Positions 2,946-60,057 of a stretch of 64,000 bases of DNA are shown piece after piece. The DNA is from Candidatus Curtissbacteria bacterium RIFCSPLOWO2_12_FULL_41_16 (GTDB lineage Bacteria; Patescibacteriota; Microgenomatia; Curtissbacterales; GWA2-41-24). The DNA lies in the NCBI GenBank assembly GCA_001776545.1, contig MFBZ01000016.1:1088-65087 (forward strand). Reading direction: 5' to 3'. The translations under genes were made by a program, and so were the position numbers. The first letter of the stretch is position 1. Each line of letters begins with the position of its first letter. The notes under the pieces were generated by a model. It did no database searches. It was not told the origin of the DNA and saw only the letters and a list, made by a program, of their open reading frames with translations.

Positions 2946-3211
2946 AGTCTTAGAGGTTAAGTGAGCTTGAAGATAATTTAAAAGAATGGATAAGCCAGGC
3001 CTGAAGAAAAAGCTTAGTTTGTCGACCATTCATAGTTAGTAATTAGTAAACTACTTGTAAATTAAGGAATCTTCCCACATTAGCTGGACTAAACTCAAAA
3101 GAATTGATAGTATGCCAAAGGTTCCTTATTTCGTCTAATAAGGCCGACCAAGTTAGAATAACTCGGTGGGTTTGACAAAATCAGTTAGAAAAAAGTTACA
3201 ATGGATATAGA

Positions 3212-3607
3212 ATGACAACTGCCGTTAAAGCAGAAGAGCTACCTCTTAAGCCACCTGGAAGCGAAACACCCGGACCGCCGCCTGAGGATCCAAATAGCCC
3301 AGAAGCCAAACAAAGACGTGCGGATGAACTTCAAAGACGATTAGATGCTTTGCTGCAGGGGAGTAACCAAGCTGCTAGTCATATTTCACTTGAAGGAGCT
3401 GATCGCAGAGAAATTACTGGATTGAAAGAAGAATTAGACCAACTACGTGGCCAAGGAATAACAAGCAGTGTCGAGCCCCGTGAATCAAAAGCGAGTTATT
3501 CATATCCCGACCGAGATTCTTTCGCTTTGCTGAGGCGCGCTGGAATCCCACCAACAACTACAAAGCCGGGTGCCTCGACAAAATCCGTTTTAAAAAGCAG
3601 GAGATAA
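3212..3607 (+). CDS. hypothetical Pro/Arg-rich protein, anomalously GC-rich (~50% vs ~40% background)
   Basis: 131-aa ORF with codon periodicity. Convergent with rpsI. Confidence 0.4.
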   Translation: MTTAVKAEELPLKPPGSETPGPPPEDPNSPEAKQRRADELQRRLDALLQGSNQAASHISLEGADRREITGLKEELDQLRGQGITSSVEPRESKASYSYPDRDSFALLRRAGIPPTTTKPGASTKSVLKSRR

Positions 3608-4649: not shown

Positions 4650-5150
4650 CTAATTTCTTGCCTGTGCGAGATTGCCTGCAGCTTCAGCCGCTGGCGGGCT
4701 AACAACCACTGATTTTGCCGAAGTCTTGCGTGACAACTTTTTCGGCGTCTTATTTTTAGCCTTCGTGCTTTTTGGGACAACAGACTTTTCCTTTTCCCCC
4801 ATTTCAATAAATTCAAGCCTTGCCATCTGGGCAGCATCACCTCGTCTGATGTCTAATTTGATTATTCTCGTGTAACCGCCTATTCTCTTGATATTAGCTC
4901 GCGCAATTTCGCGAGTTAATTTAAGTAAGGCTTGGTTGGTCAGAATAGATGCTAATGATCTTCGCGAATGCAAAGTATCTTTTTTGGCGTCCGTGACCAA
5001 TTTTTCGACAAAGCCGCGCACAAATTTTGCCTTTGCTAGGGTCGTGATAACAGCACCATTTGTTATTAATGAACTGGCCAGGTTGGCACGCAGCGCTTTT
5101 CTGGCGTTGGTATCTCTGGCGAGCTTGCGACCAAATTTTGCGTGTCTCAC
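4650..5150 (-). CDS. rplQ: 50S ribosomal protein L17
   Basis: MRHAKFGRKLARDTNARKALRANLASSLI... is the typical L17 N-terminus. Lys-rich C-terminal extension. Confidence 0.9.
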   Translation of the reverse strand: MRHAKFGRKLARDTNARKALRANLASSLITNGAVITTLAKAKFVRGFVEKLVTDAKKDTLHSRRSLASILTNQALLKLTREIARANIKRIGGYTRIIKLDIRRGDAAQMARLEFIEMGEKEKSVVPKSTKAKNKTPKKLSRKTSAKSVVVSPPAAEAAGNLAQARN

Positions 5151-6067
5151 TTGACATCGACTCCTTTCTCACTTAGTTTTTCTTCAACCAAAGCGATAGA
5201 TTTTGGCCCAAGATTCTTCATTTTTAAAAGATCTTTCTTGTCTTTCTGCAGAAAGTCACCGATCGTCTCAACTTTACTCGATTTTAAACTATTAGTTAAC
5301 CTCACTGGTAAATCAAGTTCTTCCAGGGATGTTTTTAAAACCTCATCGCTTGGTGGCTGACTTGTTTGAGGTTTTTGTTTTTTACTACCTGTTTGAGGTT
5401 GATAAATAGTTATGAAATGATCTACTAAAATTTTTGCCGCCTGTTTTAAGGCAAGAGATGGTTTAATTGTGCCATCGGTGGCTATCTCGATTATTAATTT
5501 GTCGTAGTTGGTAAGTCGGCCAACACGTGTTGCCTCTACTTTATAATTCACGGAAATAATTGGCGAAAAATTAGCGTCAATAGGAATAATTCCGATCTCG
5601 TCAGTTTTTCTCTCTTCGGCAAGTGAATAACCCATGCCTGTTTCGGCAACCAAACGAGCATTAAGTCTTGTTTTGGAATCCGCAAGATGAGCCAAAATTA
5701 AATCACCATTAACAATTTCCACCCCGGCTGCCGGTTCGATATCTTTTGCTTTCACTTCTTTTGGCCCTTTGACATCCAAAGTAAGCCTAACTGGTTTGTC
5801 ACCGGCAATTTTCAGTCTTACATTTTTGAGATTTAAGATAAACTCAACTATATCCTCGGTCATTCCGGGAAGAGAACTGAATTGATGGCGGATGCCGGAG
5901 ATTTTTACCTGCGTGATGGCTGCGCTCGGTAAGGACGTAAGAAGAACCCTGCGCAATGAATTGCCAATAGTATGCCCGTAACCTTGGTCTAATGGTTCAA
6001 TAATAAATTTTCCGAACTCTTGCGTTTCTTTTTCTGTTTCGATTTCAATTTGCGACAAATCGAGCAT
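5147..6067 (-). CDS. rpoA: DNA-directed RNA polymerase subunit alpha
   Basis: N-terminal and C-terminal alpha domain motifs (GHTIGNSLRRVLL; C-terminal helix-hairpin-helix region). 306 aa. Confidence 0.95.
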   Translation of the reverse strand: MLDLSQIEIETEKETQEFGKFIIEPLDQGYGHTIGNSLRRVLLTSLPSAAITQVKISGIRHQFSSLPGMTEDIVEFILNLKNVRLKIAGDKPVRLTLDVKGPKEVKAKDIEPAAGVEIVNGDLILAHLADSKTRLNARLVAETGMGYSLAEERKTDEIGIIPIDANFSPIISVNYKVEATRVGRLTNYDKLIIEIATDGTIKPSLALKQAAKILVDHFITIYQPQTGSKKQKPQTSQPPSDEVLKTSLEELDLPVRLTNSLKSSKVETIGDFLQKDKKDLLKMKNLGPKSIALVEEKLSEKGVDVK

Positions 6068-6089
6068 TTATTTCACCTCCTTTTATGCC

Positions 6090-6133
6090 CTAAGGGGACA
6101 CCTAAGGTTCCTTCTTAGTATTCCCCTTCCTTT
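6090..6133 (-). promoter_or_regulatory. repeated ~44-nt leader element, copy upstream of rpoA
   Basis: On the transcript, AAAGGAAGGGGAAUACUAAGAAGGAACCUUAGGUGUCCCCUUAG. 20/20 identity plus flanking similarity with the copy at 6768-6809. Confidence 0.5.
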
Positions 6134-6151
6134 AAAAATTTTCTTCACGAT

Positions 6152-6760
6152 TCATCTTGAGTAATACTCGACGATTAAACTTTCATTAATCGCCAGATCT
6201 TGCTCGTCACGTTTTGGTCTGGCAACAACTTTTCCGACAGTTGCCTTTTTGGCAAGCCAAGACGGTAATTTTGCATCTTTTGTTTCTTCCTGCAATTTTT
6301 TAATGAAATTTAAATTCGCAGCCTTTGCAGACAGTGAAATAACATCACCTATTTTAACATTATATGAGGAGATCGTCACCTTTTTACCGTTGACCAAAAC
6401 ATGGCCATGGGAGACAAGCTGTCTTGCTTGCGGGCGACTTTTGGCTAAATTTAATCTGTAAACCGCATTATCAAGACGATTTTCCAAAATTTCAAGCAAA
6501 GTTTGGCCGGTTGCGGATTTTTTACTGGAAGCCAATTGGTAGTATTTTTTGAACTGTCTTTCAAGAATTCCATACATTCTTTTGACTTTTTGTTTCTCTC
6601 TTAACTGGATGCCATATTCCGAAAGCTTTTTGCGGCCCTTTGCGCCATGCTGTCCTGGGGGGGCAGCATTCTTTCTGATTACCGGACATTTTGGCGAGCC
6701 ACACAGAGCTACACCTTCCGCTCGACAAAGTTTATGCTTTGGTCCTGTATATCTAGCCAT
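6152..6760 (-). CDS. rpsD: 30S ribosomal protein S4
   Basis: MARYTGPKHKLCRAEG...C...C Zn-finger-type S4 N-terminus and S4 domain. Confidence 0.95.
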   Translation of the reverse strand: MARYTGPKHKLCRAEGVALCGSPKCPVIRKNAAPPGQHGAKGRKKLSEYGIQLREKQKVKRMYGILERQFKKYYQLASSKKSATGQTLLEILENRLDNAVYRLNLAKSRPQARQLVSHGHVLVNGKKVTISSYNVKIGDVISLSAKAANLNFIKKLQEETKDAKLPSWLAKKATVGKVVARPKRDEQDLAINESLIVEYYSR

Positions 6761-6767
6761 GACACTC

Positions 6768-6809
6768 TAAGGGGCAACCAAGATTTCCCCTTAGTATTCC
6801 CCTTCCTTT
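6768..6809 (-). promoter_or_regulatory. repeated ~44-nt leader element, copy upstream of rpsD
   Basis: On the transcript, AAAGGAAGGGGAAUACUAAGGGGAAAUCUUGGUUGCCCCUUAG. Same 20-mer as at 6114-6133. Confidence 0.5.
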
Positions 6810-6838
6810 CATTGGAAATTTGAAATTGGTAATTCTCA

Positions 6839-7246
6839 TTAGACTCTTCTCTTTTTCGATGCTCTGGGTCCATTGTGTGGAATAGGTGTAACATCGGCGA
6901 TCATTGCAATATCAAGACCAACTGCTTTTAATGCACGGATCGCTCCATCTCTACCTGGACCAGCACCTTTGATGTAAACCTCTACGCTTTCAATGCCTTT
7001 TTCTTTGGCCTTTCTTGCAACTTGTTCAACTGCTGTGGTTGCAGCATAAGGTGTTGATTTTCTCGCGCCTTTAAAGCCGGAGGCACCCGCTGATCCCCAG
7101 CATATGGTCCGTCCGTTGGTGTCTGTTATTGTAACTAGCGTATTGTTAAAAGTGGCGGTAACGTAAGCGCGTCCGGCGGCGGAAGTTTCGTGAACGTTTC
7201 CGGGTTTTTTATTTAATTTGTTGGTTTTGGTGTTTTTTTTAGTCAT
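6839..7246 (-). CDS. rpsK: 30S ribosomal protein S11
   Basis: [12 protein letters not shown]...GFKG..K.TP.AA motifs. Confidence 0.95.
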
Positions 7247-7665
7247 TTATTCTCGGCCACTTTGGTTATTTCTTTCGTCTTTTCAACCCTTCCTGCAGCT
7301 TCTTTTCTGACTGTACCTATGGTTATTCTTTTACCTCTTTTGGTCCTAGCATTCGTCCTTGTCCTTTGGCCACGTACCGGTAAATTCCTGGTATGACGAA
7401 TACCCCGATATGAACTTATCTCTTGAAGTCTTTTAAGATTTTCTTGAATCTCGCGCCTAAGGTCTCCTTCTACTTTGTACTCTTCTACCTTGCGCTGAAG
7501 TCTATTTATTTGCTCTTCCGTAAGATTTTTTGTCCTAGTGTTTGGGTCTATTTGACAATCAGCAATGATTTTTTTGGACAAAGTTAATCCAATCCCAAAA
7601 ATGTAGGGTAGAGCTGCTTCAATTCTTTTTTCGTTTGGCAGATCGACTCCAGCAATTCTAGCCAT
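7243..7665 (-). CDS. rpsM: 30S ribosomal protein S13
   Basis: [11 protein letters not shown]....AL..I.GIG N-terminus. Arg-rich C-terminal tail. Confidence 0.95.
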
Positions 7666-7683
7666 AATATCCTAATTTATCCT
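7666..7683 (-). promoter_or_regulatory. 18-nt element AUUAGGAUAAAUUAGGAU abutting the rpsM start codon
   Basis: Identical 18-mer found abutting the rplC start (20238-20255). It contains tandem AGGA (SD-like) at 10-nt spacing. Confidence 0.5.
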
Positions 7684-7795
7684 AATAAGATTAGTCCGAA
7701 TTTATCCGAATGCTCCCAGTTGATTTCAATTGCTAATTTTGAGAATTGACTATTCGGATTCATTCGGATTATTTTGATTAAGACACATTGGTATT

Positions 7796-7909
7796 TCATC
7801 CCTGTCTTTGCTTATGGCGAGGGTTAGTACAAATCACATAAAGCCGACTTTTACGTTTGACGATTCTACAATTAACGCATCTTTTTTTAACGCTTGCTTG
7901 AACCTTCAT
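7796..7909 (-). CDS. rpmJ: 50S ribosomal protein L36
   Basis: Not in the ORF track (37 aa). Hand translation of the minus strand gives [37 protein letters not shown], the classic L36 Zn ribbon, at the position where L36 normally lies between infA and rpsM. Confidence 0.85.
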
Positions 7910-7959
7910 GGTAAATTCAAAAACTTTTCATTTTTAACTTTTATTCTTAAATTGGCCTC

Positions 7960-8199
7960 TTATCTGTACCTAAACGTTATCCTCCCACGAGCTAAATCGT
8001 AAGGTGTCATTTCAAGTTTTACTTTGTCGCCGGGCAAAATTCTGACATAGTGAATGCGCATTTTCCCTGACAGGTGGCAAAGGACAATTTTATCTTCTTT
8101 GACGCTTGGCAGTTGGGCAGATGCAACTCTGACCCTAAACATGGTGTTGGGCAAGGCTTCTGTGACTTCGCCTTCTGCTTCAATAACGCCGGGTTTCAT
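7960..8199 (-). CDS. infA: translation initiation factor IF-1
   Basis: LPNTMFRV....G....AH.SGKMR..YIRIL.GDKV..E..PYDL..GRI.FR. Start trimmed to [10 protein letters not shown]. Confidence 0.9.
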
Positions 8200-9572: not shown

Positions 9573-10849
9573 CTTTTCCTCAGAAAGGAATCATAATCTC
9601 TCATTACTAAGTGCGATTCGATTTTTTTTGTTGTCTCCAGGACAACTGAGACCACGATTAGAAGCCCGGTTCCTCCAATTAGGAGAGTTGCGACTCCGGT
9701 TAGGCTTTGGCCGATTGATGGCAGAATCGCAATAAGCCCCAAAAAGACTGCTCCGAAGAGGGTTATTCTTAATGAAATATAATCTAGGTGTGATTTAGTG
9801 GGAGAACCGGGTCTAATTCCAGGAACAAAACCGCCTTGTTTCATAAGCATTTCCGAGATTTGTTTAGTGTTAAAAGCGACAGTGGTGTAAAAATAGGTAA
9901 AAGCCACCACTAACAAAAAGTAGGTTACGTTGTAGAGAACATCTTGGGGATTGAAAAGCCTTTGGATTTCCTGGGCGATGTTGGCAACTAAAACGCTGGG
10001 GGACCTTTCGAAAAATTTGGCAAATGTTGTCGGCAAAAGAATTAAGGAAACAGCAAAGATTATTGGGATAACGCCGGCTTGGTTAATTCTAAGTGGAATA
10101 TAGCTCGCAACTGGCGTTTCAGTCGTGCTTCTTCTGGCGTAATGGACGGTAATCGGACGCTTAGCCTCTGTTACAATAACGATTGAGACAATGACAATTA
10201 CGGCCATCGCCATAAAAATCAGGATGTTTTTTATTTGTGTTGGATCAAAAATTGAAACAGTTTGGGCAAGACCAATAGGTAATCTACCAGCAATACCCGC
10301 AAAAATTATCATTGAGATTCCATTGCCTATTCCTTTTTCGGAAATTAGTTCACCCAACCACATCAAAAAAATTGTGCCTGCCGTCATGGTGATAACGAGA
10401 GCTAAAAGAATCAGCGGTGATAGGACACTTATAATGCCGGAATTGCGTAGTAAAATATACATTCCAAAAGCCTGAACGGCAGCCAGAGGGACGGTTAGAT
10501 AACGAGTGTACTGATTAATCTTCTCGTGTCCTTGCTCGCCCTCTTTGGCTAGCTCTTCAAGTTTTGGAAAAACCAATTGCAAGAGTTGCATGATAATGCT
10601 GGCATTGATGTACGGATTCAGCCCTAATGATAGGACTGAAAAATTGGCTAAGGTGCCGCCAGAAAAAAGATCTAAAAGCGAAAGTAGTTGACTTTCGGCA
10701 AATAATCTTTTAAGTGATGCAATATCGACACCAGGAACCGGCACATGGGCAAATAGCCTAAAGATAAGAAAAATAAAAAAGCTAAAAAGAATTCTTTTTC
10801 TTAAATCTTTAACTTTAAAAATCTTTAATAAGGTTTGTAGATAATTCAC
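9569..10849 (-). CDS. secY: preprotein translocase subunit SecY
   Basis: 426 aa, ten hydrophobic segments, canonical position after rplO. Confidence 0.95.
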
Positions 10850-10876
10850 AACTGTACTTCAGGGCAAGCCTTGCGA

Positions 10877-11482
10877 TCACCCCTGCTTCGCGGGGATCCT
10901 GTTTTTTCCCCTTAATACTTCCTTTCTCCTGGTGGACAAAATTGGTTTGCCTAAAGCAGTTCCAATTTTGGAATTTTGATTTCTGATATTTGCCCGCTCC
11001 GCTTCGCTTTGCGAGGCGGGGGATTTTTGATTCAGTATTGTCACTTTTCCGCCGGCTTTTTGAATTTTCTCTGCTGCACTTTTGGAAGTCGGTAAATTTA
11101 TGACGAGTGCTCTTGATAAATTACCATCTCCCAGGATTTTTACGCCATAATTTTTGGCGTCGTTTTTTTCAACTATACCGAACTTGACAAGTGCTTCAAG
11201 GTCCACATTTTGGCAGTTTTCGGGTAGCAGATTCAATGCTCCTAAATTGACAACTAGCGGTTTTTGGGAAATTTTAGGATTCCCTATACCTCTTCTTAAA
11301 GGAAGCCTTTTAATAAGAGGTCTTGTTCCGCCTTCGAAATGTGGATGGGTAATTTTCATTTTACCTCTGGCTTTTTGACCTTTGGTCCCGCGGCCGCCTG
11401 TTTTTCCTTTCCCTGACGACTGACCACGACCGATCCTTTTTGCTCTTTTTTGGGTTATTTTTGGCAAGGTATTTAAATTCAT
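10877..11482 (-). CDS. rplO: 50S ribosomal protein L15 with ~55-aa C-terminal extension
   Basis: RIGRGQSSGKGKTGGRGTKGQKARG motif. The extension carries GC-rich hairpin-forming DNA (10985-11025, 10855-10900). Confidence 0.9.
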   Translation of the reverse strand: MNLNTLPKITQKRAKRIGRGQSSGKGKTGGRGTKGQKARGKMKITHPHFEGGTRPLIKRLPLRRGIGNPKISQKPLVVNLGALNLLPENCQNVDLEALVKFGIVEKNDAKNYGVKILGDGNLSRALVINLPTSKSAAEKIQKAGGKVTILNQKSPASQSEAERANIRNQNSKIGTALGKPILSTRRKEVLRGKNRIPAKQG

Positions 11483-15685: not shown

Positions 15686-15880
15686 AACTTTCCCTTTCCC
15701 TTAATAAACTACTCACGGCCGATTCGGTCTGAGCCTCACGGTCGAAGACCTGAAGGCCATAGTTCTCGCTCGCGTGGAATAGACAATAGACAAAATTGTC
15801 CAAGCTAAGCTTGTTACAATTTTGGGATTTGTTTTTTTTGAATTTTGATTTGTCATTTTGATGTTTGATTTTTGATTTTG

Positions 15881-16519
15881 TTACGTTTCTCCTTTATATA
15901 TCCAAACCTTAACACCGACGGTGCCTGACTTTGGAACTTGAGCATCGACTTTAGCAAAATCAATTTCTGCCCTAATTGTGTGGAGTGGAACGGCACCAAT
16001 TTTAACCGTCTCTCGTCTGGCTATTTCTGATCCTCCAAGTCTGCCAGAGAGCGAGATACGCACTCCTTTGGCGCCTGATCTTCTAACTCTTTCTTGCGTT
16101 TGATTCATTATCCTTCTAAAAGGAATTCGCCTGCCCAGTTGGTCTGCAATAGATTGAGCAATTAAATAAGCATCAAGGTCCGGTGATTTAATCTCTTCAA
16201 ATCTAATCTCTAGTTTGTCGGAATCTACAATTTTTAATTTCTTGACTAGTGCCGCTTTTAACTGTTCGATACCGGTTCCACCCCGACCGATGGCGATACC
16301 CGGCCTGGCGACATGGACGATGGCAACTCGTTTGTCAAAAGAACGCTCGATTTCAACTTTGGAAATCCCAGCGGGTTTTAGATGTTCCATGATAAATTTC
16401 CTTATTTTTTGATCCTCCAGAAGATATTGGGAATAAAGACCGTTTTTGGCAAACCATCTGGAGCTCCAGGTATAAATGTTTCCTAGCCTAAAGCCGATCG
16501 GGTTAACTTTTTGGCCCAT
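15881..16519 (-). CDS. rpsC: 30S ribosomal protein S3
   Basis: MGQKVNPIGFRLG N-terminus, KH domain and S3 C-terminal domain. Track ORF trimmed from 16567. Confidence 0.9.
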   Translation of the reverse strand: MGQKVNPIGFRLGNIYTWSSRWFAKNGLYSQYLLEDQKIRKFIMEHLKPAGISKVEIERSFDKRVAIVHVARPGIAIGRGGTGIEQLKAALVKKLKIVDSDKLEIRFEEIKSPDLDAYLIAQSIADQLGRRIPFRRIMNQTQERVRRSGAKGVRISLSGRLGGSEIARRETVKIGAVPLHTIRAEIDFAKVDAQVPKSGTVGVKVWIYKGET

Positions 16520-58603: not shown

Positions 58604-59953
58604 TTAACTAGACTCGTCGCCATCAGCGTTGTTGGAAGTTGTTTCATCTTTTATCACTGATGGCGTAGGAGATTCTGGGGGCACTGAGGTAGTTGTCGAC
58701 TGTTTTGATTCTGTGCTTTCATTTCCTTTTGTGCCTTCCGTTCCTTTTGTGCCTTCCGTGATCGTTTTTTCGTCCTGATCGCTTGTGGAAATTGTCTGAT
58801 CATCTATATTTCGAACTGGTTGGCTGATCTTGCGACTCACTGAGTCATCTGCCGGTTTCTTTTGATCGCCTTTTGCGCTTGATTTTTCCGTTGTCCCCTT
58901 ATCATTGGTTTTTGATAGCTTTGATGCTTTTAATCCCTCTTCAATAACTCCTAGGGCCTTTTTGGCCTCAGCTTGAGCTTTTCTTTCTTTGGCCTCAACT
59001 TCTTTAGGCAAACCACTTTTGCCGCGAATATCAATTTTATATCCGGTAAGTTTGTGAGCAAGCCGCACATTTTGGCCTTCTTTACCGATTGCCAGTGAAA
59101 GTTGGTCATCAGGTGCGGTAACTTCTGCGGTTTTTTCTTTTTCGTTTACTTTTACTTGTAAATCCTTCGCGGGTGAAAGAGCGGCTCTGATAAACTCTGA
59201 CGGGTCTTCTTGATAAGCGATGACGTCGATTTTCTCGTCACTAAGTTCATTAATAACAGCCTGGACTCTAACGCCTTTTTGACCAACACATGAACCAACT
59301 GGATCAACGCCGAGTTGGCGCGAGGCGACGGCAACTTTGGATCTTGAGCCGGCTTCTCTGGCAACGGTTTTAATTTCTACAATACCTTGCGCAATTTCCG
59401 GAACTTCTTGTTTGAAAATACCTTCCAGGAGACCATTAGCGCTTCTTGAAATAATAATTTCTTCTCCCCTTGCTCCTTCTTTAATACCAACAACATAAAA
59501 TTTCAAGCGTTGGTTTACATAATATTTTTCATTGTGAGCTTGTTCTGCGGGTGGCATAATACCTTCGGCCTTGCCAAGATTGACCGTGATCACTTGACCG
59601 GCAATTCTTTGAATAATTCCGGAAACAATGGTGCCAACTTTTGATGAATACTCTGTTAAAATGGCATTTTTCTCGGCTTCCCGAATTCTTTGCAAAATGA
59701 CTTGTTTGGCGGTTTGCGCGGCAATTCGGCCAAAACCACTCGGAGTCACATTTTTTTTACCTTTTTGAAGATTTACTTCGCCAGTTGCCGGATCAAGATC
59801 AACGACGATGCCTTCGGGCTCTCCGTAATCTTTGCGGTAAGCAGCCAGAATGGCTTGTTTGATAGAGTCGATAACGACTTCGGGTTCGATTCCCCGTTCG
59901 GAGCAAACCTGATTTAGGGCTGATGCGAATTCTGTTCGAGCTTGTATGGCCAT
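58604..59953 (-). CDS. nusA: transcription termination/antitermination factor NusA with low-complexity C-terminal tail
   Basis: NusA N-domain, S1 and two KH domains (GxxG: GKEGQNVRLA). The tail holds the GTKGTE repeat. Confidence 0.9.
   Translation of the reverse strand: MAIQARTEFASALNQVCSERGIEPEVVIDSIKQAILAAYRKDYGEPEGIVVDLDPATGEVNLQKGKKNVTPSGFGRIAAQTAKQVILQRIREAEKNAILTEYSSKVGTIVSGIIQRIAGQVITVNLGKAEGIMPPAEQAHNEKYYVNQRLKFYVVGIKEGARGEEIIISRSANGLLEGIFKQEVPEIAQGIVEIKTVAREAGSRSKVAVASRQLGVDPVGSCVGQKGVRVQAVINELSDEKIDVIAYQEDPSEFIRAALSPAKDLQVKVNEKEKTAEVTAPDDQLSLAIGKEGQNVRLAHKLTGYKIDIRGKSGLPKEVEAKERKAQAEAKKALGVIEEGLKASKLSKTNDKGTTEKSSAKGDQKKPADDSVSRKISQPVRNIDDQTISTSDQDEKTITEGTKGTEGTKGNESTESKQSTTTSVPPESPTPSVIKDETTSNNADGDESS
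58724..58759. repeat. 18-nt tandem duplication in the nusA tail
   Basis: tccttttgtgccttccgt occurs twice, encoding GTKGTE twice. Confidence 0.7.
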
Positions 59954-59961
59954 TCTACTTG

Positions 59962-59983
59962 GAGAAAAGCTAAAGCTTTTCTC
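59962..59983 (-). promoter_or_regulatory. perfect 9-bp hairpin 9 nt upstream of the nusA start codon
   Basis: gagaaaagc-taaa-gcttttctc occupies the position of the ribosome-binding site. Confidence 0.4.
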
Positions 59984-60057
59984 GATATTCCTCTTTCCCT
60001 GCTAGATTTAAATTTAATTTTTAACTAATTATTTTCTTTGTAGTTTTTGCGATATTC

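What the first reader, a model, noticed from the sequence alone, without database searches (positions are those of the whole stretch)
6068..6838. Duplicated ~44-nt leader element immediately upstream of both rpsD and rpoA
What the sequence shows: the spacers rpsK-rpsD and rpsD-rpoA each carry AAAGGAAGGGGAAUACUAAG (20/20 identical) followed by a CCUUAGG/CCCCUUAG-containing segment.

Established knowledge: in E. coli the alpha operon is translationally autoregulated by S4 binding a structured leader.

Inference: two copies flanking rpsD itself suggest a lineage-specific S4 (or other) operator, or a duplicated strong SD (AAGGAAGGGG) module.
Basis: partly seen in the sequence, partly recalled or inferred. 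Interest (0 to 1): 0.5.

Follow-up and report, generated by a model that had tools for sequence, protein, structure and literature searches.

The report
Dispersed structured leader element in Curtissbacteria
The two repeats flanking rpsD are real, but they are shortened copies of a roughly 100-base, two-hairpin RNA element, unknown to RNA databases, that these tiny-genome bacteria place just before the start codons of many core genes, so it is not a sensor for ribosomal protein S4.

Summary
The repeat is real: AAAGGAAGGGGAATACTAAG occurs 20/20 at 6790-6809 and 6114-6133 (minus strand), with 0.01 matches expected by chance.

It is not specific to rpsD/rpoA. The window comes from a Candidatus Curtissbacteria MAG. 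Both copies are 5'-truncated members of a ~98-nt family: UAAAAU, hairpin P1, linker, invariant purine block AAAGGAAGAGGAAUA, hairpin P2 (CUAAGGGG...CCCCUUAG), then AGAGU.

Across 25 copies, 19 of 26 base pairs covary; 93.7% of cells are paired versus 81% in shuffles (0/500 shuffles reach this). Copies precede infA, rpmJ, rpsM, rpsD, rpoA, rpsL, rpsG, rplP, secY, nusA, an ftsL-like gene and tmRNA. All are co-oriented with the downstream gene, and P2 usually ends 3-12 nt before the start codon.

The window holds at least two more copies (secY, nusA). Several close relatives lack the element at rpsD and rpoA. I found no match in Rfam or in the literature searched.

An S4-specific operator is not supported; a portable SD/leader module is closer. 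The most likely role is a cis-acting leader cassette for the downstream cistron. The mechanism is inferred, not shown.

The parts
6757..6833 (-). Copy W1, upstream of rpsD. It is 5'-truncated (P1 missing). Purine block 6795-6809, hairpin P2 6767-6794 (CUAAGGGG-AAAUCUUGGUUG-CCCCUUAG), then AGUGUC and the rpsD ATG at 6758-6760.
   Evidence: Model R1 scores 53.9 bits, E 4e-9, with the P1 segment deleted. Sequence, fold. The core is 96% identical to the rpsG copy of L212.
6080..6186 (-). Copy W2, upstream of rpoA. The real element spans about 6090-6139; the rest of the model match lies in the rpsD 3' end. Purine block 6119-6133. P2 at 6090-6118 has a mismatched 5' arm (CUAAGAAGG versus UCCCCUUAG). 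A canonical SD, AAAGGAGGUGA, follows, and the rpoA ATG is at 6065-6067, 22 nt after P2.
   Evidence: Model R1 scores 33.9 bits, E 6e-5, with non-standard pairs marked in P2 and no genuine P1. Sequence. The fold prefers AAGGGGA:UCCCCUU.
10878..10975 (-). Copy W3, a full-length but divergent copy in the rplO-secY spacer. P1 is intact (CCAAAAUUGG...CCAAUUUUG). P2 is followed by a GC-rich insert, CCCCGCGAAGCAGGGGTGATC. The secY GTG start is at 10849.
   Evidence: Model R1 scores 38.1 bits, E 8e-6. Sequence. The same insert occurs in the L087 rpmJ copy.
59950..60022 (-). Copy W4, lacking the GC-rich core of P1, directly upstream of nusA (ATG at 59951-59953). It reads AGGGAAAGAGGAAUA, then hairpin UCGAGAAAAGC-UUUA-GCUUUUCUCCA, then AGUAGA and AUG. 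It lies ~60 nt after a canonical terminator, AAGGCGCGCAUGCGCCUUUUUUU.
   Evidence: Model R1 scores 28.1 bits, E about 1e-3. Sequence. The downstream ORF is NusA by Pfam.
15701..15829 (-). Possible P1-only relative in the rpsC-rplP spacer. A P1-like hairpin, CCAAAAUUGU...ACAAUUUUG, lies at about 15791-15825 and is followed by UCUAUUG. The purine block and P2 are replaced by unrelated GC-rich sequence.
   Evidence: Model R1 scores 22.6 bits, E 0.013, which is weak. Sequence.
6152..6760 (-). rpsD (ribosomal protein S4), the gene flanked by copies W1 and W2.
   Evidence: ORF; Pfam Ribosomal_S4 and S4 domains on the identical protein.
5147..6067 (-). rpoA (RNA polymerase alpha), downstream of copy W2.
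   Evidence: ORF; Pfam RNA_pol_L, RNA_pol_A_bac and RNA_pol_A_CTD.

Best explanation
The two repeats are 5'-truncated members of a multi-copy, ~98-nt structured element family restricted, as far as sampled, to Candidatus Curtissbacteria-type genomes.

Shown: the full element reads UAAAAU, hairpin P1 (a variable, covarying outer stem plus a CUGGC-UUU-GCCAG core, followed by a short U-rich stretch), linker UCCAnU, an almost invariant single-stranded purine block AAAGGAAGAGGAAUA, hairpin P2 (CUAAGGGG-AAAC(CUUG)GUGU-CCCCUUAG), then AGAGU. It always lies on the coding strand of the downstream gene, usually with P2 ending 3-12 nt before that gene's start codon.

Inferred: it is transcribed as part of the mRNA and works in cis as a portable leader or intercistronic cassette. 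The purine block is the ribosome-binding (SD-like) site for the downstream cistron. P2 folds out the ~28 nt between the block and the start codon, giving an effective spacing of 7-16 nt, as in the split ribosome-binding sites of phage T4 genes 38 and 25. P1 closes off the upstream cistron, either as a 3'-end hairpin or as a weak terminator.

In the window, the rpsD copy keeps only the block+P2 half and supplies the rpsD initiation region. The rpoA copy is a decaying remnant, because rpoA has its own canonical SD. The element is not an S4-specific operator.
For: Family and structure:
- 13 distinct full copies align over ~98 nt.
- RNAalifold predicts 26 pairs, 15 with compensatory changes.
- On 25 copies, 93.7% of cells are paired versus 81.0% in shuffles, 19 of 26 pairs change on both sides, and the covariation score is 0.386 versus 0.151 (0/500 shuffles). 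Sliding the partners drops pairing to 36-62% (for the 13-copy set).

Distribution:
- Copies lie upstream of rpsD, rpoA, secY and nusA in the window.
- Copies lie upstream of infA, rpmJ, rpsM, rpsD and rpoA in L002, L003, L087, L090 and L091.
- Copies lie upstream of infA, rpoA, rpsL, rpsG, rplP, an ftsL-like gene, tmRNA and nrdR in metagenome contigs.
- All ~28 copies, at 15 different loci, are co-oriented with the downstream gene.

Geometry:
- 17 of 24 copies have a start codon 3-12 nt after P2, mostly with no other SD in between.
- In L212 a strong sigma-70-type promoter (TCGACA-17-TATAAT with TG, 11/12) ends 19 nt upstream of the rpsL copy, so there the element forms the 5' end of the transcript.

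Selection:
- Flanking r-protein DNA is 68-71% identical between these genomes.
- The single-stranded linker+block averages 79% identity, while P1 keeps its pairing at only 64% sequence identity.

Precedent:
- A hairpin that bridges SD and AUG enhances initiation in T4 genes 38 and 25 (PMC3014915).

Not S4-specific:
- Relatives with 76-81% identical S4 lack the element at rpsD.
Against: - No transcription, ribosome-binding or protein-binding data exist, so the function is inferred.
- Most genes in this window lack any SD within 22 nt. The missing proximal SD at rpsD, secY and nusA is therefore not exceptional, and the block need not act as an SD.
- Intact copies also precede rpoA, which has its own AAAGGAGGUGA 22-23 nt after P2, and the non-coding tmRNA gene. 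Supplying an SD cannot be the whole function.
- Predicted accessibility of the block is mixed, 0.29-0.89.
- With P2 ending only 3 nt before the AUG in the infA copies, the hairpin could hinder initiation instead of helping it.
- GU versus AC counts (14 versus 9) do not by themselves decide which strand folds.
- P1 meets the scanner's terminator criteria in only a few copies.
- The linker helix UCC:GGA shows no covariation.
Confidence: 0.45

Rival explanations
1. The element is a regulon operator. The invariant purine block, presented between two hairpins, is the binding site of one trans-acting factor: an RNA-binding protein such as a CsrA-like GGA binder, an sRNA, or the 16S 3' tail used as a sensor. 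That factor would coordinately control translation or stability of many core information-processing genes.
For: The single-stranded block and its flanks (GGAAUAYUAAGG) are conserved far beyond what an SD needs: about 79% between genomes whose coding DNA is ~70% identical. The block carries two GGA motifs. Copies precede functionally related genes (translation factors, r-proteins, RNAP alpha, NusA, SecY, tmRNA). Intact copies persist where no SD is needed, at rpoA and tmRNA.
Against: No candidate factor was identified. No covariation supports presenting GGA in a loop; the alternative helix pairs in only 8-22 of 25 copies per position. The element is absent from orthologous spacers in close relatives, which is odd for an essential regulon. 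The gene set was sampled mostly around S4 loci, so the apparent functional coherence is biased.
Confidence: 0.2
2. The element is transcriptional punctuation. P1 is an intrinsic terminator for read-through from the upstream gene. The TAAAAT hexamer abutting P1 is the -10 box of a -35-less promoter whose transcripts start inside the P1 5' arm. Those transcripts escape termination and carry block+P2 as their 5' leader.
For: A hexamer with at least 5/6 matches to the -10 consensus (TAAAAT, TATAAT or TAGAAT) starts exactly 7-8 nt before the first P1 pair in 14 of 22 full copies; background is 7% for a whole 22-position window. P1 is an A-tract/GC-core/U-tract hairpin and is flagged terminator-like in two L087 copies. 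A promoter would explain why the element also precedes the tmRNA gene and a gene next to a divergent neighbour.
Against: There is no -35 signal: the mean best score is 2.55 versus 2.51 in background. The rpsL copy of L212 already has a strong promoter just upstream. U-tracts after P1 are short, and most copies fail the terminator scan. Terminators inside r-protein operons would be unusual. The window's rpsD and rpoA copies lack both P1 and the hexamer.
Confidence: 0.15
3. The element is a selfish small mobile repeat of the MITE, REP or MIRU type. It spreads between intergenic sites and is tolerated only where it does not disturb expression. Its hairpins would serve mobility, possibly in single-stranded DNA, and not gene expression.
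For: Presence is patchy at orthologous spacers among close relatives. The window rpsD copy is 96% identical to a copy at a different locus (rpsG) in a genome whose coding DNA is ~69% identical. L214 carries a duplicated rplP 5' fragment next to its copy, and L165 a duplicated tRNA 3' end. GC-rich mini-hairpins are nested inside some copies. There are several copies within a few kb.
Against: There are no terminal inverted repeats, no regular target-site duplication and no associated transposase. Compensatory changes maintain both hairpins across species, and copies at the same locus (infA, rpmJ, rpoA) share subtype features, which indicates vertical inheritance under selection. Orientation is 100% with the downstream gene, and the position before start codons is fixed. 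No real copy was found on viral contigs.
Confidence: 0.15
4. The element is a lineage-specific autoregulatory operator for ribosomal protein S4. S4 binds the duplicated element to repress rpsD and rpoA.
For: Two copies flank rpsD in the window. E. coli S4 does autoregulate the alpha operon through a structured leader (established knowledge).
Against: The same element precedes at least 12 unrelated genes and an RNA gene. It is absent at rpsD in L001-L003, L090, L091, L094 and L098. There is no match to Rfam Alpha_RBS or to the S4 leader families. No similarity to E. coli genomes, rRNA operons included, was detected.
Confidence: 0.03

Closest known systems
E. coli alpha-operon S4 translational operator (Rfam Alpha_RBS, RF00140) and the Rfam S4 leader families
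   Same: Both are structured RNA in the rpsM-rpsK-rpsD-rpoA gene neighbourhood, located in an mRNA leader or intercistronic region.
   Different: There is no Rfam match. This element is not at the rpsM start as a pseudoknot. It is multi-copy before many unrelated genes and absent from close relatives' rpsD spacers. No S4 link is testable here.
Split ribosome-binding sites of phage T4 genes 38 and 25 (PMC3014915)
   Same: An SD-like tract is separated from the start codon by a stable hairpin that would bring the two to a workable distance. The effective spacing here is 7-16 nt; in T4 it is 5 and 11 nt.
   Different: The T4 cases are single loci with 22-27 nt linear spacing. Here a conserved ~28-nt hairpin, with 35-44 nt linear spacing, is reused at many genes and carries an additional upstream hairpin. 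Function is untested.
Dispersed intergenic repeats co-transcribed with operons: REP/BIME, ERIC/IRU, Neisseria Correia elements, mycobacterial MIRU (own knowledge; reviewed in PMC3184786)
   Same: These are short (40-150 nt), hairpin-forming, multi-copy elements in intergenic or intercistronic DNA. Like MIRU, this element is oriented with the operon and sits between cistrons. Presence among relatives is patchy.
   Different: There are no terminal inverted repeats and no target duplications. The position before start codons is fixed. The element has an SD-like invariant single strand. Covariation is maintained across species at orthologous loci. It is found in a CPR lineage.
STAB-SD and 5' stem-loop mRNA stabilisers of Bacillus (cryIIIA, aprE; own knowledge)
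   Same: Both have an SD-like purine tract located well upstream of the start codon, next to hairpins, in a 5' leader.
   Different: STAB-SD elements are single-gene features defined by mRNA half-life experiments. No stability data exist here, and this element is a repeated family.

Membership tests
S4 autoregulatory operator (Alpha_RBS / S4 leaders) | Sequence and structure match to the curated covariance models | tested here: not met
   There are no Rfam hits at gathering score in the whole window. In E-value mode over 5900-8000, only chance-level hits to unrelated families appear.
S4 autoregulatory operator (Alpha_RBS / S4 leaders) | Specific association with the S4-regulated operon and conservation with rpsD | tested here: not met
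   The element is found before infA, rpmJ, rpsL, rpsG, rplP, secY, nusA, an ftsL-like gene and tmRNA. It is absent at rpsD in seven relatives.
S4 autoregulatory operator (Alpha_RBS / S4 leaders) | Binding of S4 and repression of translation | not testable with these tools
   This needs in vitro binding or toeprint assays.
Conserved structured RNA motif (cis-regulatory leader) | Base pairs maintained by compensatory substitutions across independent sequences | tested here: met
   19 of 26 pairs change on both sides. 93.7% of cells are paired versus 81.0% in shuffles (0/500). Slid controls give 36-62%.
Conserved structured RNA motif (cis-regulatory leader) | Consistent strand and position relative to the regulated gene | tested here: met
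   All ~28 copies at 15 loci are co-oriented with the downstream gene. In 17 of 24 copies the start codon lies 3-12 nt after P2.
Conserved structured RNA motif (cis-regulatory leader) | Transcribed as part of the mRNA | not testable with these tools
   The only evidence is indirect: a strong promoter-like site 19 nt upstream of the L212 rpsL copy.
Split (hairpin-bridged) ribosome-binding site | An SD-like tract, an intervening stable hairpin, then a start codon at a short folded distance | tested here: met
   The block (AAAGGA / GAGG) is followed by AAUA, the 28-nt P2, then 3-12 nt to the AUG or GUG in 17 of 24 copies. P2 is supported by covariation.
Split (hairpin-bridged) ribosome-binding site | The upstream tract is the only usable SD, and the genome depends on SDs | tested here: inconclusive
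   Most genes in the window have no SD at all. The rpoA copies have their own canonical SD, and one copy precedes tmRNA.
MITE / REP-type mobile repeat | Terminal inverted repeats and/or target-site duplication; linkage to a transposase or RAYT | tested here: not met
   The element ends (UAAAAU... and ...AGAGU) are not inverted repeats. There are no regular flanking duplications; only two idiosyncratic gene-end duplications exist. No transposase lies in the neighbourhoods examined.
MITE / REP-type mobile repeat | Many copies per genome and patchy presence at orthologous sites | tested here: met
   There are 4-5 copies in the 64-kb window and 2-3 copies within 5.6-kb loci. Presence or absence differs among close relatives.
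Intrinsic terminator (P1) | A GC-rich stem followed immediately by a U-tract | tested here: inconclusive
   Two L087 copies pass the scanner. The window secY copy and the L146 and L212 copies do not. U runs are 3-4 nt.
Sigma-70-type promoter | -35 and -10 hexamers at 16-18 nt spacing | tested here: inconclusive
   A -10-like TAAAAT sits at a fixed position in 14 of 22 copies, but the -35 score equals background. No promoter-like site was found in the window's two spacers.

The most novel reading that the evidence does not exclude
Curtissbacteria (a CPR lineage with minimal genomes) may use one conserved leader RNA, copied in front of a dozen or more core information-processing genes (infA, nusA, secY, rpoA, many r-protein genes, tmRNA), as a common operator. 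A single trans-factor, or the ribosome itself, would read that operator. This would give a one-RNA regulon that coordinates the translation apparatus, replacing the many protein-specific r-protein leaders known from E. coli and Bacillus.
Probability: 0.2. Interest if true: 0.8.

Novelty: new variant of a known kind. Interest (0 to 1): 0.6.

Why it matters
Almost nothing is known about gene-expression signals in Candidate Phyla Radiation bacteria, which cannot be cultured alone. This work defines a strongly covarying, roughly 100-nt RNA element that is absent from Rfam. It recurs immediately upstream of the start codons of many essential genes, inside operons that are normally tightly packed.

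If it is a portable initiation or leader cassette, it shows how an organism that mostly lacks SD sequences boosts or insulates individual cistrons. If it is a shared operator, it would define a new global regulon for the translation machinery. Either way it gives a concrete, testable RNA with a covariance model for surveying CPR genomes. It also corrects an attractive but wrong S4-autoregulation reading.

Tried and rejected
- Rfam: a gathering-score search of the whole window, an E-value search of 5900-8000 and a gathering-score search of 14 loci with full copies found nothing except tmRNA and tRNAs. A weak opposite-strand resemblance to Bacillus ncr1241 (E = 8) is treated as chance.
- rRNA mimicry: blastn of a full copy against all complete E. 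coli genomes gave no match. This is a weak test, because Curtissbacteria rRNA was not available.
- Viral contigs: six pattern hits, none confirmed by the model.
- Promoter inside the block/P2 region: hexamer spacing does not fit, and the scanner found nothing in the two window spacers.
- -35 box for the TAAAAT hexamer: at background level.
- Alternative linker helix UCCnCU:AGAGGA, which would present AAAGGA in a loop: poorly paired and without covariation.
- Alternative switch fold (block paired with the P2 3' arm, plus ACUAAGG:CCUUGGU): possible in 'type A' copies but not conserved in the infA/rpmJ/rpsL subtype.
- Predicted accessibility of the block and the AUG: inconclusive.
- Strand call from GU versus AC counts: 14 versus 9, not decisive.
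- Missing proximal SD as evidence for the split-SD model: undermined by the control showing that most genes here lack an SD.
- Literature searches found no description of this element.
Full report
**Observation**

All relevant genes are on the minus strand: rpsM 7243-7665, rpsK 6839-7246, rpsD 6152-6760, rpoA 5147-6067 and rplQ 4650-5150. In mRNA sense the two spacers read as follows:

- rpsK-rpsD spacer: UAA ugagaauuaccaauuucaaauuuccaaug AAAGGAAGGGGAAUACUAAGGGGAAAUCUUGGUUGCCCCUUAG agugucAUG
- rpsD-rpoA spacer: UGA aucgugaagaaaauuuuu AAAGGAAGGGGAAUACUAAGAAGGAACCUUAGGUGUCCCCUUAG ggcauaAAAGGAGGUGAaauaaAUG

The 20-mer AAAGGAAGGGGAATACTAAG occurs only at 6790-6809 and 6114-6133, even allowing 3 mismatches; 0.01 matches are expected by chance. 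Similarity extends to 39 nt at 82% identity.

**Source and relatives**

The window's S4 protein is encoded identically on contig MFBB01000003.1 of GCA_001774835.1 and on several Rifle-aquifer metagenome scaffolds with the same spacers. The nearest genomes are Candidatus Curtissbacteria.

Relatives with 76-81% identical S4 (L001-L003, L090, L091, L094, L098) have rpsK-rpsD spacers of 0-4 nt. Most also have short rpsD-rpoA spacers without the repeat. Others do carry a related sequence, but in only one of the two spacers:

- L087 (S4 84% identical): before rpsD only.
- L091 (81%) and L146 (79%): before rpoA only.
- L096 (79%): what looks by eye like a divergent copy before rpoA.

This patchiness already argues against a conserved S4 operator.

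**The element is longer and dispersed**

A degenerate pattern for the 5' block was scanned against metagenome contigs. It also returned 11 distinct loci with the complete block plus hairpin, in quite different contexts:

| Context | Loci |
|---|---|
| smpB to tmRNA (element ends 11 nt before the Rfam-defined tmRNA 5' end) | L103 |
| rsmH to an ftsL/DivIC-like gene | L106, L127 |
| rpsL to rpsG | L212 |
| rpsC to rplP | L214 |
| rpsD to rpoA | L146 |
| Upstream of nrdR | L108 |
| After a tRNA | L165 |
| Next to a divergently transcribed RNase H-like gene | L102, L115, L167 |

Aligning the full copies shows a ~98-nt unit:

- (U)AAAAUC
- P1: an 8-bp outer stem of variable sequence, plus the core CUGGC-UUU-GCCAG
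- the linker UUUnUCCAnU
- the purine block AAAGGAAGAGGAAUA
- P2: CUAAGGGG-AAAC(CUUG)GUGU-CCCCUUAG
- AGAGU

**Structure**

RNAalifold predicts 26 pairs, 15 of them with compensatory changes. On the 13-sequence alignment, 94.7% of cells are paired versus 83.8% in shuffles, and the covariation score is 0.367 versus 0.144 (0/500 shuffles). Partner-slid controls fall to 34-62%.

A covariance model (R1) then recovered 25 copies. On that alignment:

- 93.7% of cells are paired versus 81.0% in shuffles.
- 19 of 26 pairs change on both sides.
- The covariation score is 0.386 versus 0.151 (0/500 shuffles).
- Every pair of P1 and 7 of 9 pairs of the main P2 stem covary.

This alignment was fitted to the model, so it leans towards the structure. 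The independent MAFFT alignment gives the same answer.

The 3-bp linker helix (UCC:GGA) never covaries, and an alternative linker helix is poorly paired. Both remain unsupported. GU versus AC cells (14 versus 9) do not decide the strand. The strand assignment rests on orientation and position.

**More copies, including in the window**

With filters off, R1 finds these matches in the window:

| Copy | Coordinates (strand) | Score | Context |
|---|---|---|---|
| W1 | 6757-6833 (-) | 53.9 bits | Before rpsD; P1 deleted |
| W3 | 10878-10975 (-) | 38.1 bits, E 8e-6 | Full-length, in the rplO-secY spacer |
| W2 | 6080-6186 (-) | 33.9 bits | Before rpoA; mismatches in P2 |
| W4 | 59950-60022 (-) | 28.1 bits, E about 1e-3 | Directly before an ORF that Pfam identifies as NusA |
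| weak match | 15701-15829 (-) | 22.6 bits | A P1-like hairpin before rplP |

In the S4 loci, R1 hits only Curtissbacteria-type contigs, before infA (L003, L090), rpmJ (L002, L087, L091), rpsM (L002, L087), rpsD (L087) and rpoA (L091). It finds nothing at E up to 1 in the other 80-odd loci, which include Woesebacteria, Levyibacteriota, Woykebacteria and other phyla. In the metagenome loci it adds copies before rpsL (L212) and infA (L146). L212 therefore shows rpoC-[E]-rpsL-[E]-rpsG, the same 'gene flanked by two copies' picture as rpsD in the window.

**Geometry**

All ~28 copies, at 15 different kinds of locus, are on the coding strand of the downstream gene. In 17 of 24 tabulated copies, P2 ends 3-12 nt before the start codon. 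Examples are infA at 3 nt (CCCCUUAA-AGU-AUG), rpmJ at 5-7 nt, rpsM at 5-10 nt, rpsD at 6-9 nt, rpsG at 9 nt and rpsL at 11 nt, usually with no other SD in between. The three rpoA copies lie 22-23 nt upstream and are followed by a canonical AAAGGAGGUGA. One copy precedes tmRNA.

In L212, a strong promoter-like site (TCGACA-17-TATAAT with TG, 11/12) ends 19 nt before the rpsL copy, so there the element would be the very 5' end of the transcript.

**Conservation**

r-protein DNA flanking the copies is 68-71% identical to the window. Between genomes the linker+block averages 79% identity, P2 75% and P1 64%. The single strand is therefore the most constrained part, and P1 is kept as a structure and not as a sequence.

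W1's core is 96% identical to the rpsG copy of L212, which is a different locus in a different genome. Yet copies at the same locus in different genomes (infA, rpmJ, rpoA) share subtype features such as UAUUAAGGRG...CCGUAGGUUGUC. So there is both vertical inheritance and some exchange or duplication between loci.

**What the window copies are**

W1 retains the 3' remnant of the P1 region, the block and an intact P2, 6 nt before the rpsD AUG. W2 has no P1, and its P2 5' arm (CUAAGAAGG) no longer matches the 3' arm (UCCCCUUAG). It resembles the L087 rpsD copy in the 5' arm and loop, but the standard type in the 3' arm. rpoA has its own strong SD. W2 therefore looks like a decaying or recombinant copy. 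The 20/20 identity of the blocks, with the uncommon GGGG variant, suggests local gene conversion or a recent duplication between the two sites, which lie 676 nt apart (inference).

**Mechanism**

The best-supported reading is a cis-acting leader or intercistronic cassette for the downstream cistron. The block (AAAGGA / GAGG) is complementary to the universal anti-SD; this genome's canonical SDs, such as AAAGGAGGUGA before rpoA, imply that anti-SD. With P2 folded, the GAGG-to-AUG distance is 4 + (3-12) = 7-16 nt. This is analogous to the experimentally proven split ribosome-binding sites of T4 genes 38 and 25, where spacing is reduced from 22 to 5 nt and from 27 to 11 nt (PMC3014915). P1 would cap the upstream cistron.

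These steps are inferred, and there are caveats:

- Most genes in the window have no SD within 22 nt of the start, so lacking a proximal SD is normal here.
- Intact copies precede rpoA and tmRNA, where an SD is not needed.
- Predicted block accessibility is 0.29-0.89.
- A stem ending 3 nt before the AUG could hinder initiation instead of helping it.

**Rivals**

- A shared operator for one trans-factor is attractive. The single strand is conserved beyond the needs of an SD, and the genes served are functionally related. No factor is known, and the sampling was biased towards S4 loci.
- A terminator-plus-promoter 'punctuation' module is suggested by a -10-like hexamer (TAAAAT, TATAAT or TAGAAT) starting exactly 7-8 nt before P1 in 14 of 22 full copies, against a 7% background. 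It is also suggested by the terminator-like shape of P1, which is flagged in two L087 copies. Against it, there is no -35 signal, and most copies fail the terminator scan.
- A selfish mobile repeat fits the patchy distribution, the near-identity between different loci, the duplicated rplP 5' fragment in L214, the duplicated tRNA 3' end in L165 and the nested GC-rich inserts. However, there are no terminal inverted repeats, no regular target duplications and no transposase. Covariation, strict orientation and fixed placement argue for selection on a cis function. No copy was found on viral contigs.
- An S4-specific operator is disfavoured for the reasons given above.

**Known or new**

Rfam 15 has no matching family, and three literature searches found no description. 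The kinds involved, namely dispersed intergenic repeats, structured leaders and hairpin-bridged ribosome-binding sites, are all known. What is unusual is the combination: one covarying two-hairpin leader reused in front of many core genes, inside operons, in a CPR lineage.

I therefore class it as a new variant of a known kind. Interest is moderate to high for RNA and CPR biology. The function is open and directly testable.

Noticed in passing
window 7666-7795: The rpmJ-rpsM spacer (~130 nt) is filled with other short repeats: direct TCCTAATTTATCCTAAT / TCCGAATTTATCCGAAT and inverted AATTTATCCGAATG / CATTCGGATTATTT. Similar 'aattcg...' repeats fill the 108-nt rpsK-rpsD spacer of L085. This may be a second family of spacer elements.
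   Followed up: no
window 10877-11482: The L15 (rplO) ORF is 201 aa, but its Pfam L15 domain ends at residue 148. The last ~50 codons run through the secY copy of the element, and the stop codon lies at the element's 3' end. Either L15 has acquired an element-encoded tail, or the true stop was lost when the element arrived.
   Followed up: partly
window 10875-10895; L087 ~1255-1280; L091 ~3205-3225: GC-rich mini-hairpins are nested inside element copies. The 21-mer CCCCGCGAAGCAGGGGTGATC is shared by the window secY copy and the P2 loop of the L087 rpmJ copy. L091's rpoA copy has CCTGTCTGCCGACAGGCAGG inserted in its P2 loop. They look like a separate small insertion family.
   Followed up: partly
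L214 3900-4046; L165 3991-4215: Gene-end duplications lie next to element copies. In L214, a 28-nt copy of the rplP 5' end (it encodes MLAPRRAKY with different codons) follows the element, and the true rplP start lies 119 nt further on. In L165, the element sits between a tRNA and a ~31-nt duplicate of that tRNA's 3' end. This suggests recombination or integration events around copies.
   Followed up: partly
window, whole (80 long ORFs): Most genes, including rpsJ, fusA, rpoB and dnaK, have no recognisable SD within 22 nt of the start, while a minority (rpoA, rplX, rplN, rpoC) have strong ones. Start sites are mechanical (first ATG/GTG/TTG), so the fraction is approximate.
   Followed up: partly
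L115 8497-8670 (also L102, L167): The free-standing copy is followed by a hairpin, GACCCC...GGGGTC, that is a strong terminator on the opposite strand (8 U). Beyond it lie ~100 nt of conserved non-coding sequence (TACTGGCCAGTAC...CTGAAAGGGCTT). There is no Rfam hit. It may be an unannotated antisense-oriented small RNA.
   Followed up: no
window 15830-15900; L087 ~1420-1463: Runs of A-rich (A)TCAAAA repeats, such as caaaatcaaaaatcaaacatcaaaatgacaaatcaaaat, lie immediately upstream of P1-type hairpins.
   Followed up: no
window 6101-6144 (+): The opposite strand of the rpoA copy gives a weak Rfam hit to Bacillus sRNA ncr1241 (17.9 bits, E = 8, gathering score 60) and shares UAGUAUUCCCC with it. 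I treat this as chance.
   Followed up: no
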